From Parcubacteria group bacterium Gr01-1014_20 (lineage in GTDB: Bacteria > Patescibacteriota > Minisyncoccia > UBA6257 > 2-01-FULL-56-20), in assembly GCA_007376265.1 (NCBI GenBank), contig VMFW01000007.1, positions 1-43,173 of the forward strand: 43,173 nt of DNA. Direction: 5' to 3'. A program made the position numbers and the translations under genes. Below the pieces are notes generated by a model. That model did no database searches and was not told the origin of the DNA. It saw only the letters and a list, made by a program, of their open reading frames with translations. Shown one piece after another: positions 8,353 to 28,052 of the stretch. Position 1 is the stretch's first letter, and the number at the start of each line of letters is the position of its first letter.

Positions 8353-9672
8353 TTGATGAATAATTCTTCTGGATTTACTGGATTAGGGATTGCTCCCGGG
8401 ATTTTAGCGGTTTTGGCGCGGCATAAATTTGTTCAACCGACGCCGATTCAGGCCAGATCCATTCCTGTTGCGCTTGAAGGCAAAGATTTGGTGGGGATTG
8501 CTCAAACGGGAACGGGGAAGACTCTGGCTTTTGGCATTCCGATGGTTCAGAGGATTTTACAGAAACAGGGAACGGGGCTAATTGTTTTGCCAACAAGAGA
8601 ATTGGCGATGCAGGTGAGGGATGCTTTGCAGATGGTGGGCGGATCGTTAGGCATTAAGACCGCACTTTTAATTGGGGGCGCGCCGATGGGTCGACAGGTG
8701 GCAGAGATTAGGCGCCGACCAGAAATTGTGATCGGCACGCCAGGAAGGATTAACGATCACCTAGAACAGAAGACACTGACGCTTTCGAGTGTGAAAATCT
8801 TGGTGCTGGATGAGGCGGACAGGATGCTCGATATGGGTTTTGCGCCGCAGTTGAAGCGAATCATGAAGTTTGTTCCGACTGAACGACAGACCGTGCTTTT
8901 TTCGGCGACGATGCCGCCGGAAATTATGAATATGGCACGGATGTTTATGAAGCTCCCTGTGCAGATTGAAATTGCGCCACCCGGAACGGCGGCCGCGAAT
9001 GTCACTCACGAGGTTTTTGTCCTCGGTCGTGATCAGAAACCAGCGCTTCTCAACAAGTTGCTTTCAGACTATAGAGGATCGGTTTTGGTTTTTACTCGCA
9101 CTAAATTCGCTGCTCGGAAGGTGGCGCTCGCCGTACGAAACTTTGGCCACACCGCGAACGAATTGCATTCGAATCGATCGTTAAGCCAGCGGCGAGAGGC
9201 GCTTGAGGGTTTTAAGAACGGTCGGTATCGGGTTTTAGTAGCGACTGATATCGCCGCTCGGGGCATTGATGTGACGGGGATTGAGCTCGTGGTTAATTAT
9301 GATTTGCCAGATCAGGCGGAGGATTATGTCCACCGGATTGGCCGGACGGGCCGGGCCGGAGCTTCTGGCCACGCCATCTCTTTTGCCACGCCCGACCAGA
9401 GGGGCGACTTACATTCAATTGAGAGATTACTTAAAAAATCTTTGCCGCTCGCAAGACTGCCGGATTCTTTGCCGAGGGTAGCTTTCGAGCCGAGGCGACC
9501 CTTCGAAAACAAACCGAGAAGCTTTCAGTCACGATCACAGGGTCCTAGCCGATCATCAAGTCAGTCTAGATCACGTGGTTATCATTCAAGCGGTCGGGGT
9601 GAGGGGAGCAGCTTTTCGAGTCGACCTCCGAGACGGAGTGGTTTTTCTGGGCGGAGATTTGGAGGCAGATAG
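8353..9672 (+). CDS. DEAD-box RNA helicase (RhlE-like)
   Basis: Q motif PTPIQ, AQTGTGKT, PTRELA, DEAD, SAT, HRIGRTGRAG; R/S/G-rich tail. Confidence 0.93.
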   Translation: MMNNSSGFTGLGIAPGILAVLARHKFVQPTPIQARSIPVALEGKDLVGIAQTGTGKTLAFGIPMVQRILQKQGTGLIVLPTRELAMQVRDALQMVGGSLGIKTALLIGGAPMGRQVAEIRRRPEIVIGTPGRINDHLEQKTLTLSSVKILVLDEADRMLDMGFAPQLKRIMKFVPTERQTVLFSATMPPEIMNMARMFMKLPVQIEIAPPGTAAANVTHEVFVLGRDQKPALLNKLLSDYRGSVLVFTRTKFAARKVALAVRNFGHTANELHSNRSLSQRREALEGFKNGRYRVLVATDIAARGIDVTGIELVVNYDLPDQAEDYVHRIGRTGRAGASGHAISFATPDQRGDLHSIERLLKKSLPLARLPDSLPRVAFEPRRPFENKPRSFQSRSQGPSRSSSQSRSRGYHSSGRGEGSSFSSRPPRRSGFSGRRFGGR

Positions 9673-9679
9673 GTTCCTC

Positions 9680-9708
9680 TTGCGATTCAAAGATATTAGT
9701 GGTATTAT
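9680..9708 (+). promoter_or_regulatory. Sigma70 promoter of typA leader
   Basis: TTGCGA-17 nt-TATTAT with extended -10 TG. Confidence 0.6.
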
Positions 9709-9726
9709 ATTTTTGCTTCAATAAGC

Positions 9727-9748
9727 GCCCTTTCGGGCATTTTTATTT
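9727..9748 (+). promoter_or_regulatory. Short hairpin plus T-rich tract in typA leader (possible attenuator)
   Basis: GCCC-TTTC-GGGC followed by ATTTTTATTT, just downstream of the promoter. Confidence 0.35.
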
Positions 9749-9754
9749 ATCTAA

Positions 9755-9907
9755 ATGGAGTTAAGGAACATAGCTATAATTGCGCAAGTAGACGTCGTCC
9801 CGTCGGAACGAGACTCCTTAAAACCCAGCGGTTTTAATATTTCCGCTACGGGAAAACTCCCGTTTTCCCGACCCCTTTCCCGTCAACGTGCGCTAAAATT
9901 TATTTAA
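9755..9907 (+). other. Upstream ORF (50 aa) starting with a recoded copy of the TypA N-terminus
   Basis: MELRNIAIIAQVDVVPSERDSLKPSGFNISATGKLPFSRPLSRQRALKFI*; same frame as typA, joined by TAA-AAA-ATG. Confidence 0.8.
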
Positions 9908-9910
9908 AAA

Positions 9911-11722
9911 ATGGAACTTAGAAATATTGCAATTATTGCTCACGTTGACCACGGCAAGACCACTTTGGTTGATGCGCTCTTGAAGCAGTCGGAAAATTTT
10001 AAGATCAAGTCCGACGGTTTAAAGGAGCTCATTATGGATTCAAACGATCTTGAAAGAGAGCGGGGGATTACGATTTTTTCCAAAAACGCTTCTATTCATT
10101 ATAAGGATGTGAAGATTAATATCGTGGACACTCCCGGTCACGCGGATTTTGGGGGCGAGGTGGAACGAATAATGAGAATGGTGGACGGAGTTTTGATACT
10201 GGTTGACGCGAAAGAAGGGCCGATGCCGCAGACAAAGTTTGTGCTACGAAAAGCAATTCAAGCCGGACACAAGATTATTTTAGTGATTAACAAGATTGAT
10301 AAACCTCACGCGAGGCCGGAGTGGGTACTAAATGCTATGTACGATTTGTTTTTAGAATTGGGCGCGAGTGAAGCCCAGATTGAATTTCCAATTATTTACG
10401 CCTCGGCGATTCAGGGGAAAGCCGGGATGACAGCGAATTTGGCCGAGATGGAAAACGTGGAAACGATTTTTCAGCAAATCGTGAGTTTTTTCTCTCCGCC
10501 AGTGATTGATGAAGCTAAGCCGCTTCAGATGCTCACCGTGAACTTGGCCTACGATAACTATAAGGGCAAGTTGGCGGTGGGCCGACTTTACGCGGGGACT
10601 ATTAAAAAAGGCATGGTGGTCGCGCACATTAATCGAGCGGGAGAAATTAAAAAAGGAGAAATTAGTTCGGTAATGATTTTTGAGGGTTTGAATCGGGTGG
10701 ATGTTTTAGAGGCTAGGCCTGGAGACATTGTGGCGGTGGGAGGAATTTCTGACATTTCCATCGGTGAGACGATTGCGGACATCAAAAATCCGATTGCCTT
10801 GCCAATTATCGAAATTGACGAGCCGACGATCAAGATGACATTTGGGGTGAATACCTCGCCTTTTAAGGGGAGAGAGGGAGAGTTTACGACTTCAAGAAAG
10901 ATCAAGGAACGACTAGATAGGGAACTCGAGACGGATGTGGCCCTTACTATTCTCTCGACCGGTTCGGCGGACCGATGGGTTTTGGCTGGCCGCGGCGAAC
11001 TTCATTTGGCGATTTTGATTGAAAAGATGAGACGAGAGGGGTACGAGATCGAGGTTTCGAAACCCCAGGTGATTTTTAAGGAAGTCGACGGGAAGAAGAT
11101 GGAGCCGATGGAGCTCACCTCAATCGAGGCGCCGGAGAAGTATTCTGGGATAATAATCGAAATGATGGGCAAGCGGGCGGCGACGATGAAAGATATGCAC
11201 GTGGATGGAGGTAACGTGTATATGGATTTTATGGCGCCAATGAGAGCGCTCATCGGTTCGCGCGGTGAATTTTTAACTAACACCAAAGGCACGTGTATTA
11301 TGAACAGTATTTTTTTGGGTTATGAGGAGTACAAGGGAGAGATCGGCGGGGAGGCGCGCGGTTCCCTCGTCTCAACCGAAACCGGAGTTTCCAATAATTA
11401 CGGATTAGTAAACGCGCAAGGCCGGGGCAAGCTTTTTATGGGCGATGGCGTTCAAGTTTATGAAGGTATGGTGGTGGGGCAGAATGCCAAGGCGGGAGAT
11501 ATCGCGGTCAATATTTGTAAAACCAAACAACTCACAAATTTCCGAGGAAAAAACGAGGGGCTTCAAGATCAACTGGAAGTGCCGCTGACGTTAACCTTAG
11601 AAGATGCCTTGTCTTATATCGGTGATGATGAGATGGTGGAAGTGACGCCGAAGAGTGTTAGGATTCGGAAAATTTTTCTCACTGAAAACGAAAGGAAGAA
11701 TTCTAAGAGACAGAGTCAATGA
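9911..11722 (+). CDS. typA: Translational GTPase TypA/BipA
   Basis: RNIAIIAHVDHGKTT, DTPGHADFGGEVER, GRGELHL, YEGMVVG, EVTPKSVRIRK. Confidence 0.97.
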   Translation: MELRNIAIIAHVDHGKTTLVDALLKQSENFKIKSDGLKELIMDSNDLERERGITIFSKNASIHYKDVKINIVDTPGHADFGGEVERIMRMVDGVLILVDAKEGPMPQTKFVLRKAIQAGHKIILVINKIDKPHARPEWVLNAMYDLFLELGASEAQIEFPIIYASAIQGKAGMTANLAEMENVETIFQQIVSFFSPPVIDEAKPLQMLTVNLAYDNYKGKLAVGRLYAGTIKKGMVVAHINRAGEIKKGEISSVMIFEGLNRVDVLEARPGDIVAVGGISDISIGETIADIKNPIALPIIEIDEPTIKMTFGVNTSPFKGREGEFTTSRKIKERLDRELETDVALTILSTGSADRWVLAGRGELHLAILIEKMRREGYEIEVSKPQVIFKEVDGKKMEPMELTSIEAPEKYSGIIIEMMGKRAATMKDMHVDGGNVYMDFMAPMRALIGSRGEFLTNTKGTCIMNSIFLGYEEYKGEIGGEARGSLVSTETGVSNNYGLVNAQGRGKLFMGDGVQVYEGMVVGQNAKAGDIAVNICKTKQLTNFRGKNEGLQDQLEVPLTLTLEDALSYIGDDEMVEVTPKSVRIRKIFLTENERKNSKRQSQ

Positions 11723-27812: not shown

Positions 27813-28052
27813 TTGTACTACCTTTATATAATTCAATGCGAAGATGGGAATTTATACACCGGCATCACCACAGACGTTCGGAGGAGGTTTTTAGAACACA
27901 AAAAAGGTTTGGGCGGGCACTACACGCGAGCCCATAAGGTGAAGAAAGTTCTTTATGCCGAAAAAGTTGGCACGCGAAGCCAGGCTTTGAAGCGCGAGGC
28001 CGAGATTAAGAGCTGGCGTCGCGAGAAGAAACTGGGATTAACTAGAAAATGA
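27813..28052 (+). CDS. Small GIY-YIG nuclease (UPF0213-like)
   Basis: YLYIIQC.DGNLYTGIT.D..RR..EH..G.G..YT, ALKRE..IK; start uncertain (TTG). Confidence 0.85.
   Translation: MYYLYIIQCEDGNLYTGITTDVRRRFLEHKKGLGGHYTRAHKVKKVLYAEKVGTRSQALKREAEIKSWRREKKLGLTRK

What the first reader, a model, noticed from the sequence alone, without database searches (positions are those of the whole stretch)
9755..9949. In-frame uORF that repeats TypA's own N-terminus with synonymously recoded codons
Seen: ATG GAG TTA AGG AAC ATA GCT ATA ATT GCG CAA GTA GAC (9755, MELRNIAIIAQVD) versus typA ATG GAA CTT AGA AAT ATT GCA ATT ATT GCT CAC GTT GAC (9911, MELRNIAIIAHVD). 12/13 residues match but only 3/13 codons are identical; 10 of 11 base differences fall in synonymous codons. 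The copies are exactly 156 nt (52 codons) apart, and the uORF ends TAA-AAA-ATG. A recent tandem duplication would be near-identical in DNA, so both copies have been under protein-level selection at some time. Inferred options: (a) a leader peptide regulating a ribosome-associated GTPase; (b) the scar of an element that inserts into the G1-motif codons of typA and brings a replacement 5' end; (c) splicing or ribosomal bypass between the matched GAC codons, which would give a full-length TypA.
Basis: partly seen in the sequence, partly recalled or inferred. Interest (0 to 1): 0.85.

Follow-up and report, generated by a model that had tools for sequence, protein, structure and literature searches.

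The report
Tiny mobile element before typA
The extra copy of the TypA start is the footprint of a tiny, protein-less, hairpin-rich piece of mobile DNA that lands at the ends of essential genes and tRNA genes in ultra-small groundwater bacteria, leaving a second copy of the gene end beside an intact gene.

Summary
Observation confirmed. The 13-codon upstream copy of the TypA start (9755-9793) and the real start (9911) flank a 117-nt insert. Its 110-nt core (9786-9895) is one copy of a dispersed, ORF-less, hairpin-rich repeat: about 13 copies in this 0.9-Mb Patescibacteria genome, and hits in 49 of 151 sampled genomes of its class.

Well-preserved copies share one layout: a relic copy of a gene end, three hairpins (two with compensatory changes), an inverted near-exact copy of the 10-18 target bases at the break, a spacer, then the intact gene end. 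Targets are tRNA 3' ends and ends of housekeeping genes (typA, an S9-like gene, an HMA/copper gene). Close relatives have typA without the insert.

Reading (b), a mobile-element scar, is supported in essence. A leader peptide (a) and bypass or splicing (c) are not: most relatives lack the copy, its spacing is not kept in frame, and TypA is complete from its own ATG. Which copy was imported is unresolved.

No transposase, nuclease, integrase or reverse transcriptase tracks the element, so its mobilisation is unknown. No paper describing it was found. This scan had already noted the same kind of element on other DNA.

The parts
9680..9708 (+). Promoter-like site (extended -10) upstream of the typA leader. 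Probably the native typA promoter, now also upstream of the relic start.
   Evidence: the only promoter-like match in 9600-9960. Similar -10-like boxes precede the leader hairpin in relatives (read by eye).
9726..9749 (+). Short G+C hairpin plus T-run directly before the (relic) start. In empty-site relatives the same hairpin and T-run directly precede the typA ATG.
   Evidence: G005, G004, G021 and others. The simple terminator scan did not call it.
9742..9793 (+). Left direct repeat (copy A): 8 nt of upstream flank, a few unmatched bases, and the relic typA start 9755-9793 (MELRNIAIIAQVD).
   Evidence: It lies where the native start lies in empty-site relatives.
9782..9793 (+). Inner 12 nt of the relic (X_el): an altered copy of the AHVD codons. 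It forms an imperfect inverted repeat with 9882-9893.
   Evidence: The same His-to-Gln change occurs in G001. The relic's inner end is altered in 40 of 45 family copies.
9755..9907 (+). 50-codon ORF from the relic ATG through the whole element, stopping 3 nt before the typA ATG. A by-product of the insertion, possibly kept open.
   Evidence: it is the only one of three frames open through the element. No family match for the peptide.
9794..9817 (+). Variable hairpin H0 at the element's left edge.
   Evidence: It differs in sequence between copies but is usually a hairpin that begins with a shared short junction motif.
9818..9837 (+). Hairpin H1: 8-bp stem, 4-nt loop.
   Evidence: 4 of 8 pairs change on both sides, and 97.5% of cells are paired.
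9849..9870 (+). Hairpin H2: 9-bp stem, 4-nt loop.
   Evidence: 1 pair changes on both sides, and 97.8% of cells are paired.
9871..9881 (+). Nearly invariant C/T-rich tail of the core.
   Evidence: invariant columns.
9882..9893 (+). Inverted arm (rcX): reverse complement of the native AHVD codons of typA, with 1 mismatch to 9938-9949.
   Evidence: Family-wide, the complement of this arm differs from the local native target at 32 of 635 nt.
9894..9910 (+). A+T-rich spacer between the arm and the live start. It holds a second copy of the 8-nt flank motif and the stop of the relic ORF.
   Evidence: Spacers of the family are not copies of the outer flank (4 of 38 at p<=0.05).
9911..11722 (+). typA (603 aa), intact. 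Its first 39 nt (9911-9949) are the right direct repeat (copy B), and 9938-9949 is the native target sequence.
   Evidence: TIGR01394 TypA_BipA 843.6 bits (cut-off 757.3), profile 1-593 on residues 3-596.

Best explanation
SHOWN. The upstream 'uORF' is the left half of a gene-end duplication made by the insertion of a small, ORF-less, structured element between the typA leader and typA.

In the orientation of the core, the family layout is always the same:
- a relic copy of a gene end whose inner 10-12 nt are altered;
- a variable hairpin;
- two conserved hairpins with compensatory changes, and an invariant tail;
- a near-exact inverted copy of the native target bases at the break;
- a 9-65-nt spacer;
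- the intact gene end, with the gene body beyond it.

The gene end may be a 5' end (typA, an HMA/copper gene, a glycosyltransferase-like gene) or a 3' end (tRNAs, an S9-like gene, a pilC-like gene). The polarity therefore follows the DNA, not the direction of transcription. The element is present or absent at the same site among close relatives, and it is spread over a third of the sampled genomes of the class.

INFERRED (about 35-40% for this mechanism).
- It is a non-autonomous, site-specific mobile element that acts as folded DNA.
- Its inverted arm, complementary to the target, selects the site, and the altered relic arm pairs with it imperfectly.
- Strand joining is done by host or unlinked enzymes not yet identified.
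- One copy of the duplicated gene end travels with the element from genome to genome. That is why the two copies differ almost only at synonymous sites.

INFERRED for typA expression. Transcription still starts at the native promoter. Ribosomes that start at the relic ATG read through and unwind the element, stop at TAA one codon before the real ATG, and reinitiate.
For: Repeat family.
- The 64-nt core recurs 3 times in the genome by BLAST and about 13 times with covariance model R1 (14 hits at E<0.01, two of them the halves of one copy split over contig ends).
- It is found in 31 of 61 relatives by BLAST, 49 of 151 genomes of the class and 11 of 151 of the phylum sample.

Layout.
- Seen: - 38 of 57 copies in other genomes and 10 of 14 hits in the own genome have a direct repeat of the left flank within about 110 nt to the right.
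- The 7 ARAGORN-called tRNA neighbours in the own genome all lie on that side with their 3' end facing the element.

Structure.
- H1 and H2 are 97.6% paired. There are 36 cells changed on both sides against 11.5 +/- 2.7 in shuffles (0 of 500 reach it). Pairing falls to 25-58% when partners are slid.
- In 61 copies: 946 Watson-Crick, 8 G.T and 16 A.C of 983 stem cells.

Arms. In 45 of 48 preselected copies, the complement of the inverted arm differs from the native target at 32 of 635 nt and the relic at 166 of 635. The relic is worse in 40 of 45.

Mobility.
- Empty typA sites occur in the same-genus genomes G005 and G004 and in other relatives. Filled sites are G000, G001 and G009 (3 of 30) and L150 (1 of 80).
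- Recurrent targets in different families: the S9-like 3' end in G000, G172 and G198; the HMA 5' end in G000 and G189.

Foreign-allele signature.
- Three typA pairs show 20 synonymous against 3 non-synonymous codon differences, and all 3 fall in the inner arm.
- Relics of 3' ends also differ synonymously, e.g. AGA against CGG for Arg (by eye).

Read-through. The relic ORF is the only open frame through the element in 4 of the 5 cases computed, stopping 6-27 nt before the true start (3 nt in G000). G009 also reads through.
Against: - No enzyme was tied to the element. In the class sample, Y1 transposase occurs in 25 of 49 element-positive against 64 of 102 negative genomes, and large serine recombinase in 23 of 49 against 52 of 102 (counted by hand).
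- The four highest-copy genomes (8-25 copies) have no Y1, no large serine recombinase and no reverse transcriptase. They have 1-2 GIY-YIG hits and one tyrosine recombinase each.
- No excised form, empty allele or junction was seen in reads; only contigs were on hand.
- Two measures do not exceed shuffles: pairs with a change on both sides (5 against 4.5; 266 of 500 reach it) and further pair types (9 against 12.2).
- Copies are related, so the shuffle controls overstate.
- The sample was preselected for copies with a direct repeat, and the relic window can run into the first hairpin, which inflates its mismatch count.
- About a third of copies (19 of 57) show no nearby direct repeat.
- In tRNA cases the two copies, including 7-15 nt of non-conserved flank, are nearly identical. 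That fits a locally made duplication better than an imported gene end.
- Guidance by the inverted arm is an inference from sequence only.
- The read-through and reinitiation idea has no expression data.
Confidence: 0.6

Rival explanations
1. Nuclease-driven homing. An unlinked site-specific nuclease (for example one of the tiny stand-alone GIY-YIG proteins) cuts the conserved target in element-free alleles. Double-strand-break repair then copies the element, with its spare gene end, from a filled allele. The ORF-less copies would be miniature derivatives of nuclease cassettes.
For: - The own genome has five stand-alone GIY-YIG genes of 86-109 aa.
- The one at C15:40335-40535 lies between a relic tRNA-Asp 3' end, carrying the same altered T-loop variant and the same junction motif as ORF-less copies, and the intact tRNA-Asp.
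- Another follows tRNA-Ala directly.
- Synonymous differences between the copies are what co-conversion between diverged alleles gives.
Against: - GIY-YIG copy number does not follow the element. The genomes with 8-25 copies have 1-2 GIY-YIG hits, against 6 in G000.
- The intact copy B restores the full native target next to the gene body, so filled alleles would stay cleavable.
- No nuclease ORF lies in or beside the typA element.
Confidence: 0.18
2. Passive hitch-hiker. The element has no insertion machinery and spreads between related genomes by DNA uptake and homologous or homology-facilitated recombination. The conserved gene body serves as one arm and the relic as the other.
For: - No dedicated enzyme tracks it.
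- Targets are among the most conserved sequences of the genome.
- The two copies look like alleles of different lineages.
- A type IV pilus ATPase-like gene sits just downstream of typA in the window (by sequence only).
Against: - It does not explain the conserved, covarying hairpins.
- It does not explain the inverted arm that matches each local target or the sharply defined outer edge of the duplication.
- It does not explain how new targets are colonised.
- Arms of 15-50 nt at 72-90% identity are poor substrates for RecA-type recombination (established knowledge, not tested here).
Confidence: 0.12
3. Decayed attachment-site scars. The duplications are attL/attR remnants of larger integrase-borne islands (serine or tyrosine integrases that target tRNA T-loops), from which the cargo has been deleted.
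For: - Direct repeats of a gene end that keep the gene intact are the hallmark of such islands.
- The genome has two large serine recombinases and one tyrosine recombinase.
Against: - The same conserved 110-nt core with covarying stems sits at unrelated targets (tRNAs, typA, an S9-like gene, HMA) in many families. Independent deletions would not give that.
- No association with large serine recombinases: 23 of 49 against 52 of 102, and 0 of 4 in the highest-copy genus.
- No copy with cargo between core and gene was found among 57 copies.
Confidence: 0.06
4. Regulatory leader peptide. The upstream ORF evolved to regulate typA, a ribosome-associated GTPase, through translation of a peptide that mimics its own N-terminus.
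For: - The ORF keeps its ATG and frame, and ends one codon before the typA ATG.
- It stays open through the element in 4 of the 5 cases computed.
Against: - It is present only where the element is: 3 of 30 and 1 of 80 typA loci.
- The rest of the peptide is simply the translation of the conserved hairpins.
- No family match.
- Untranslatable 3'-end relics show the same synonymous pattern.
Confidence: 0.03
5. Ribosomal bypass or RNA splicing joins the matched GAC codons to give a hybrid TypA.
For: Matched GAC codons lie 156 nt apart and in frame in G000, and 165 nt apart in G001.
Against: - TypA is complete from its own ATG.
- The spacing is 287 and 178 nt in G009 and L150, not multiples of 3.
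- No stop codon follows the take-off codon.
- The hybrid would carry Gln in place of His. His is kept in the AHVDHGK motif of all 30 typA loci read.
- No intron or other family in Rfam.
Confidence: 0.01

Closest known systems
Genomic islands and prophages that integrate into the ends of tRNA or protein genes and carry a substitute gene end (tyrosine or serine integrases)
   Same: Site-specific at a gene end. Direct repeats made of the gene end. The gene stays intact. tRNA T-loop region as a favoured site.
   Different: Here the whole insert is 117-290 nt with no integrase or any ORF. A conserved structured core and an inverted copy of the target are part of it. There is no association with integrase families.
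Free-standing homing-endonuclease cassettes that duplicate a gene terminus (mitochondrial mobile ORFs such as the Allomyces atp6 case; phage T4 Seg-type GIY-YIG genes). Recalled; the papers were not read here.
   Same: A foreign-looking, synonymously different copy of a gene end beside a relic. Presence or absence among close relatives. A GIY-YIG cassette with the same relic type exists at tRNA-Asp in this genome.
   Different: The typA element and most family members have no nuclease gene. GIY-YIG copy number does not track the element.
REP/REPIN elements with RAYT, and IS200/IS605-derived miniature hairpin elements (PATEs)
   Same: Short, ORF-less, hairpin-forming dispersed repeats thought to act as folded single-stranded DNA and to be moved in trans.
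   Different: Those depend on a Y1 (HUH) transposase and make no long target duplication. Here 24 of 49 element-positive genomes, including the highest-copy ones, lack a Y1 homolog. The arms are target-specific, and 15-50 nt of target are duplicated.
CTX-phi and other IMEX elements, and integron attC sites: folded single-stranded hairpins used as recombination sites by host Xer or IntI recombinases. Recalled.
   Same: Two inverted, imperfectly matched target-like arms about 90 nt apart that could fold into a stem mimicking the target duplex. No recombinase of its own. The highest-copy genomes keep one tyrosine recombinase.
   Different: Targets here are many unrelated sequences (T-loops, AHVD codons, S9-like and HMA gene ends), not a dif or attI site. 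No test of Xer action was possible.
Bacterial MITEs and intragenic palindromic elements (Correia, RPE, ERIC)
   Same: Small non-coding insertions tolerated in or beside genes, sometimes read through in frame.
   Different: MITEs have element-specific terminal inverted repeats and a short fixed target duplication. Here the inverted arms copy the local target and the duplication is long and variable.
Phage T4 gene 60 translational bypass element (bioRxiv 10.1101/2022.08.31.505936; search listing and abstract only)
   Same: A mobile-element-associated insert near the start of a gene, with matched codons on both sides.
   Different: There is no stop after the take-off codon, the gap is 156 nt rather than 50, and there is an independent start codon downstream. 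The in-frame spacing is not conserved.

Membership tests
TypA/BipA translational GTPase (the downstream gene) | Full-length match to the TypA equivalog model above its cut-off | tested here: met
   TIGR01394 843.6 bits (cut-off 757.3), profile 1-593 of 594 on residues 3-596.
Regulatory leader peptide / uORF | Conserved presence upstream of the gene in relatives, independent of other features | tested here: not met
   3 of 30 and 1 of 80 typA loci, always together with the element.
Programmed translational bypass (T4 gene 60 type) | Matched take-off and landing codons | tested here: met
   GAC at 9791-9793 and 9947-9949.
Programmed translational bypass (T4 gene 60 type) | Stop codon directly after the take-off codon; short gap; no independent downstream start (features recalled) | tested here: not met
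   The next codon is GTC. The gap is 156 nt. TypA starts at its own ATG. The spacing is not in frame in G009 and L150.
Known RNA families (introns, ribozymes, omega/HEARO RNAs, sRNAs) in Rfam 15 | Match to a covariance model | tested here: not met
   only four chance-level matches (E 5-10, 11-16 bits against gathering scores of 40-140).
MITE | Element-specific terminal inverted repeats | tested here: not met
   The inverted arms copy the local target and differ between targets.
MITE | Short target-site duplication of fixed length | tested here: not met
   Direct repeats of 15-50 nt, median 20.
REPIN/RAYT and IS200/IS605 miniature elements | Y1 (HUH) transposase or TnpB in genomes that hold the repeats | tested here: not met
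   Y1 in 25 of 49 positive genomes and 0 of 4 in the highest-copy genus. No TnpB-type domain in the own genome.
IS110-type elements with bridge RNA | DEDD transposase gene | tested here: not met
   None in the own genome. Other genomes were not tested.
Integrase-borne island at a gene end | Direct repeats made of the gene end, with the gene restored | tested here: met
Integrase-borne island at a gene end | Integrase gene within the element | tested here: not met
   No ORF fits: the typA repeats lie only 117 nt apart and family spacers are 9-65 nt. No association with serine recombinases.
Free-standing homing-endonuclease cassette | Nuclease ORF in the cassette | tested here: not met
   None at typA. 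One related cassette with a GIY-YIG ORF lies at tRNA-Asp.
Retroelement (retron, group II intron, DGR) | Reverse transcriptase in genomes that hold it | tested here: not met
   0 of 4 highest-copy genomes have an RVT_1 match. G000 has one, elsewhere. The A/B differences are not restricted to adenines (by eye).
IMEX / CTX-phi-like or integron attC-like folded-hairpin site | Inverted, imperfect arms able to fold into a target-like stem | tested here: met
   (arms pair in the minimum-energy fold).
IMEX / CTX-phi-like or integron attC-like folded-hairpin site | Recombination by Xer or IntI at a dif or attI-like target | not testable with these tools
   One tyrosine recombinase is present per genome where tested. 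The targets are unrelated sequences, which speaks against protein-only recognition.

The most novel reading that the evidence does not exclude
The element is a protein-less, self-targeting piece of mobile DNA. Folded as single-stranded DNA, its inverted arm base-pairs with the most conserved stretch of a gene end (tRNA T-loop, GTPase G1 codons). Ordinary host replication, repair or the single Xer-type recombinase then completes the insertion. That would make it a programmable, nucleic-acid-guided insertion system that needs no transposase of its own and protects its host gene by duplicating the gene end.
Probability: 0.25. Interest if true: 0.9.

Novelty: new variant of a known kind. Interest (0 to 1): 0.72.

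Why it matters
If the reading holds, a third of the sampled genomes of this Patescibacteria class carry a small mobile element of a kind not found in three full-text searches. It has no gene of its own, sits at the ends of essential genes and tRNAs, and keeps a faithful inverted copy of each local target.

This matters in four ways.
- It explains a recurrent annotation puzzle: decoy starts, duplicated tRNA ends, and contig breaks at gene ends in CPR genomes.
- It gives a marker of gene flow between these uncultured bacteria.
- It poses a clear mechanistic question: who moves it, given that none of the usual enzymes co-occurs?
- A target choice set by a short complementary arm would be of interest as a programmable insertion principle.

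For typA itself, the insert puts a structured 117-nt block and a 50-codon ORF in front of an important translation factor, apparently without harm.

Tried and rejected
- **Rfam** on 9500-10100: nothing above chance.
- **Public runs.** No RNA holder was listed, and only assembled contigs were on hand. Contigs of the best holder break inside the repeat and at the conserved G1 codons. No contig without the insert and no joint across it was seen. This says nothing on expression or mobility. The core region has summed contig depth 750-2055 against 16 for the flanks in that run.
- **Phage and plasmid collections:** no match.
- **Candidate partners rejected as obligatory:** Y1 transposase, stand-alone GIY-YIG, large serine recombinase and reverse transcriptase. 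TnpB and IS110 are not in the own genome.
- **Spacer as a diverged extension of the duplication:** 4 of 38 at p<=0.05, which is chance level.
- **A promoter inside the spacer:** not called by the simple scan.
- **Strand of folding from wobble pairs:** 8 G.T against 16 A.C, too few to decide.
- **Which copy is foreign.** Copy A differs from the G005 start at 9 of 39 nt and copy B at 4 of 39. However, 39-nt windows of typA between these genomes range from 26 to 39 matches, so this is not decisive.
- **Synonymous/non-synonymous table for all protein targets:** The non-typA cases are therefore read by eye.
- **Literature.** Searches found no paper on such an element in CPR bacteria. Supplementary files were not consulted.
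Full report
**1. The observation**

The window has an ATG at 9755 that opens a 50-codon ORF ending at 9907. typA (603 aa) starts at 9911. The first 13 codons of the two ORFs give MELRNIAIIAQVD and MELRNIAIIAHVD. Three codons are identical, nine are synonymous and one is not, with 11 base differences. The starts lie 156 nt apart. The ORF stops one codon before the typA ATG.

The downstream gene is TypA beyond doubt and is complete from its own ATG. TIGR01394 scores 843.6 bits against a cut-off of 757.3, with profile positions 1-593 on residues 3-596.

**2. What lies between the copies**

A BLAST search of 9740-9915 against the window's own genome (0.91 Mb, 20 contigs, 99% complete) found the central 64 nt three more times at 78-91% identity. 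All three lie next to tRNA-type genes. Each is flanked on one side by a second copy of the tRNA's 3' end.

A covariance model (R1) built from 20 copies finds 14 hits at E<0.01 in the own genome. Two of these are the halves of one copy split over the ends of contigs C11 and C7. Their neighbours are:
- seven tRNA genes called by ARAGORN (Arg x2, Met, Gln, Leu x2, Ser), each with its 3' end facing the element;
- one tRNA-like 3' end that ARAGORN does not call;
- typA;
- the 5' end of an HMA/copper-type gene;
- the 3' end of an S9-like ribosomal protein gene;
- two unclear places.

**3. The layout**

Read in the orientation of the core, the order is always the same:
- a relic copy of the gene end;
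- a variable hairpin;
- hairpin H1, a short conserved linker, hairpin H2 and a nearly invariant C/T-rich tail;
- an inverted copy of the 10-18 target bases that border the break;
- a spacer;
- the intact gene end, with the gene body beyond.

In the window these parts are 9742-9793, 9794-9817, 9818-9881, 9882-9893, 9894-9910 and 9911 onward.

The gene may be hit at its 5' end and lie on the same strand as the core (typA, HMA, a glycosyltransferase-like gene). Or it may be hit at its 3' end and lie on the other strand (tRNAs, the S9-like gene, a pilC-like gene). The polarity is therefore tied to the DNA, not to the direction of transcription.

A direct repeat of the left flank was found within about 110 nt to the right in 38 of 57 copies from other genomes and in 10 of 14 own-genome hits. 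The rest showed none. One of these (L018) has a relic of a different tRNA from its neighbour.

**4. Structure**

On 20 copies, H1 and H2 are 97.6% paired. There are 36 cells changed on both sides against 11.5 +/- 2.7 in shuffles, and none of 500 shuffles reaches that. Pairing drops to 25-58% when partners are slid.

Two other measures do not exceed the shuffles: the number of pairs with any double change (5 against 4.5) and the number of further pair types (9 against 12.2). The copies are related, so these controls overstate.

On 61 copies the stems hold 946 Watson-Crick pairs, 8 G.T, 16 A.C and 13 other. So few wobble pairs, with no clear strand bias, fit hairpins that matter at the DNA level better than an RNA. 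This is an inference. Rfam has no family for it.

**5. The two arms**

I took 48 copies, preselected for having a direct repeat. In 45 of them the intact gene end and the inverted arm could both be placed. There, the complement of the inverted arm differs from the local native target at 32 of 635 nt, and the relic differs over the same positions at 166 of 635. The relic is the worse match in 40 of 45. The relic window can run into the first hairpin, which inflates its count.

In typA the relic's last four codons carry the same His-to-Gln change in G000 and G001, and a Val-to-Leu change in G009.

The duplication has a defined outer edge (ungapped repeat 15-50 nt, median 20). The spacer (9-65 nt, median 40) is not a diverged copy of the outer flank: 4 of 38 reach p<=0.05.

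**6. Relatives**

Among 30 typA loci of related genomes, G005, G004, G021 and most others have the leader hairpin and T-run followed directly by the typA ATG. G000 and G001 (same genus, typA 89% identical in DNA) carry the element. G009 (another genus) carries a longer insert of about 240 nt that shares only the end of the core and the arm. Model R1 does not detect it.

Among 80 named typA loci from public genomes, one (L150, a Ca. Colwellbacteria MAG) has the element with the same layout. The two sets may overlap.

The names (Ca. Jorgensenbacteria, Paceibacteria, Parcubacteria group) place the host in the Patescibacteria.

| Sample | Genomes with the core |
|---|---|
| Relatives, by BLAST | 31 of 61 |
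| Class sample, model R1 | 49 of 151, up to 25 copies |
| Phylum sample, model R1 | 11 of 151, eight of them outside the class |

The same targets recur in different families: the S9-like 3' end in G000, G172 and G198, and the HMA 5' end in G000 and G189.

**7. Why the copies look 'recoded'**

In the three typA pairs computed, 20 codon differences are synonymous and 3 are not, and all 3 fall in the arm. In L150 I read five synonymous differences and one codon indel (by eye).

Relics of 3' ends cannot be translated, yet they show the same pattern, for example AGA against CGG for the same arginine of the S9-like gene in G172 (by eye). The pattern therefore cannot come from selection on an upstream peptide. 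It means that the two copies descend from two functional alleles, so one copy, or part of each, came from another lineage.

Which one came from elsewhere is open. Copy A differs from the start of G005 at 9 of 39 nt and copy B at 4 of 39. G001's copy A is 37 of 39 identical to G000's copy B. But 39-nt windows of typA between these genomes vary from 26 to 39 matches. In tRNA cases the two copies, including 7-15 nt of unconserved flank, are almost identical. That would fit a duplication made on the spot. The history may be mixed.

**8.

(b) is right in essence.

(a) fails as the origin. The ORF occurs only with the element, its tail is the translation of the hairpins, and it has no family match.

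One thing is worth keeping. In 4 of the 5 cases computed, the ORF from the relic start is the only one of three frames open through the element, and it stops 6-27 nt before the true start (3 nt in G000). G009 also reads through. The exception is the HMA gene of G189. The only promoter-like site is the native one upstream of the relic. I therefore propose, as an inference, that ribosomes starting at the relic unwind the element and reinitiate at typA.

(c) fails. The spacing is 156, 165, 287 and 178 nt, the codon after the take-off GAC is not a stop, and the hybrid would replace the His kept in the AHVDHGK motif of all 30 typA loci read.

**9. Who moves it**

The own genome has one tyrosine recombinase, two large serine recombinases, one Y1 (HUH) transposase homolog, one reverse transcriptase, five tiny stand-alone GIY-YIG genes, and no TnpB or IS110 transposase.

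One GIY-YIG gene lies between a relic tRNA-Asp end of the same altered type, with the same junction motif, and the intact tRNA-Asp. It is a possible autonomous cousin.

On the same 151 genomes none of these families follows the element (counted by hand):

| Family | Element-positive (49) | Element-negative (102) |
|---|---|---|
| Y1 transposase | 25 | 64 |
| Large serine recombinase | 23 | 52 |

The four genomes with 8-25 copies have no Y1, no large serine recombinase and no reverse transcriptase. They have 1-2 GIY-YIG hits and a single tyrosine recombinase each. The element is not in the phage or plasmid collections. Public runs gave only contigs, which break at the repeat.

**10. Verdict**

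The finding is a real and non-trivial feature: one insertion of a widespread, ORF-less, structured element that targets gene ends. That it is an insertion of a dispersed repeat with presence or absence among relatives is shown. That it acts as folded DNA, chooses its site through the complementary arm and is moved by host or unlinked enzymes is my preferred inference, at about 35-40%. The main rivals are nuclease-driven homing and passive spread by recombination.

Three full-text searches found no description of it. Earlier notes of this scan describe the same kind of element at rnhA, fusA, rpsL and tRNA genes in other genomes. I had reached the mobile-element reading before seeing them, and I tested the layout, the GIY-YIG lead and the serine-integrase lead myself.

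Noticed in passing
window 9680-9754, and typA loci L040-L063: In many relatives typA is preceded by a -10-like box, then a short G+C hairpin with a T-run, then the ATG within 5-25 nt. This looks like a conserved terminator-like leader directly before the start codon of a translation factor.
   Followed up: partly
L043 (G003, same genus), upstream of typA: A different small insert sits at the typA start: a remnant start (MELRN...), then a palindromic block of about 65 nt, then a new start (MKQELRN...). The typA start seems to be a hot spot for more than one family of small elements.
   Followed up: no
G000 contig C11 end (1-60) and contig C7 start (8-122): One element copy at the 5' end of an HMA/copper-type gene is split over two contig ends. 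These repeats break the assembly, and the two contigs are probably adjacent.
   Followed up: no
G000:C6:65880-66131 (L070): The element copy with the best model score sits beside a sequence ending in a perfect tRNA-like T-arm and acceptor end, which ARAGORN does not call as a tRNA. Its identity is unknown.
   Followed up: no
window 27813-28052 (+); also G000 C19:2248-2469, C15:40335-40535, C11:61801-62013, C18:22003-22206: Five stand-alone GIY-YIG mini-genes (79-109 aa) in a 0.9-Mb genome. Two lie directly beside tRNA genes, one with a relic tRNA end. The one in the window has no NCBIfam match and no flanking repeat was seen.
   Followed up: partly
L023 (G036:C15), about 1418-1700: An element copy precedes a start that reads like an EF-G-type GTPase up to the AHID codons and then continues with unrelated sequence. 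It is possibly a relic stacked on a further insertion.
   Followed up: no
window 9828-9881 in runs X1-X3: Contigs matching the core sum to 750-2055 depth in the best holder, against 16 for the unique flanks. They also occur in runs of a second groundwater study, so the core is abundant across these communities.
   Followed up: no
L018 (G002:C8): An element whose relic and inverted arm match one tRNA sits next to a different tRNA. Either the intact partner was lost, or the unit with its relic moved.
   Followed up: no
G000:C17:74300-74893: A single reverse-transcriptase gene (open frame 329 aa), not near any element copy. Its type (DGR, retron or other) was not examined.
   Followed up: no
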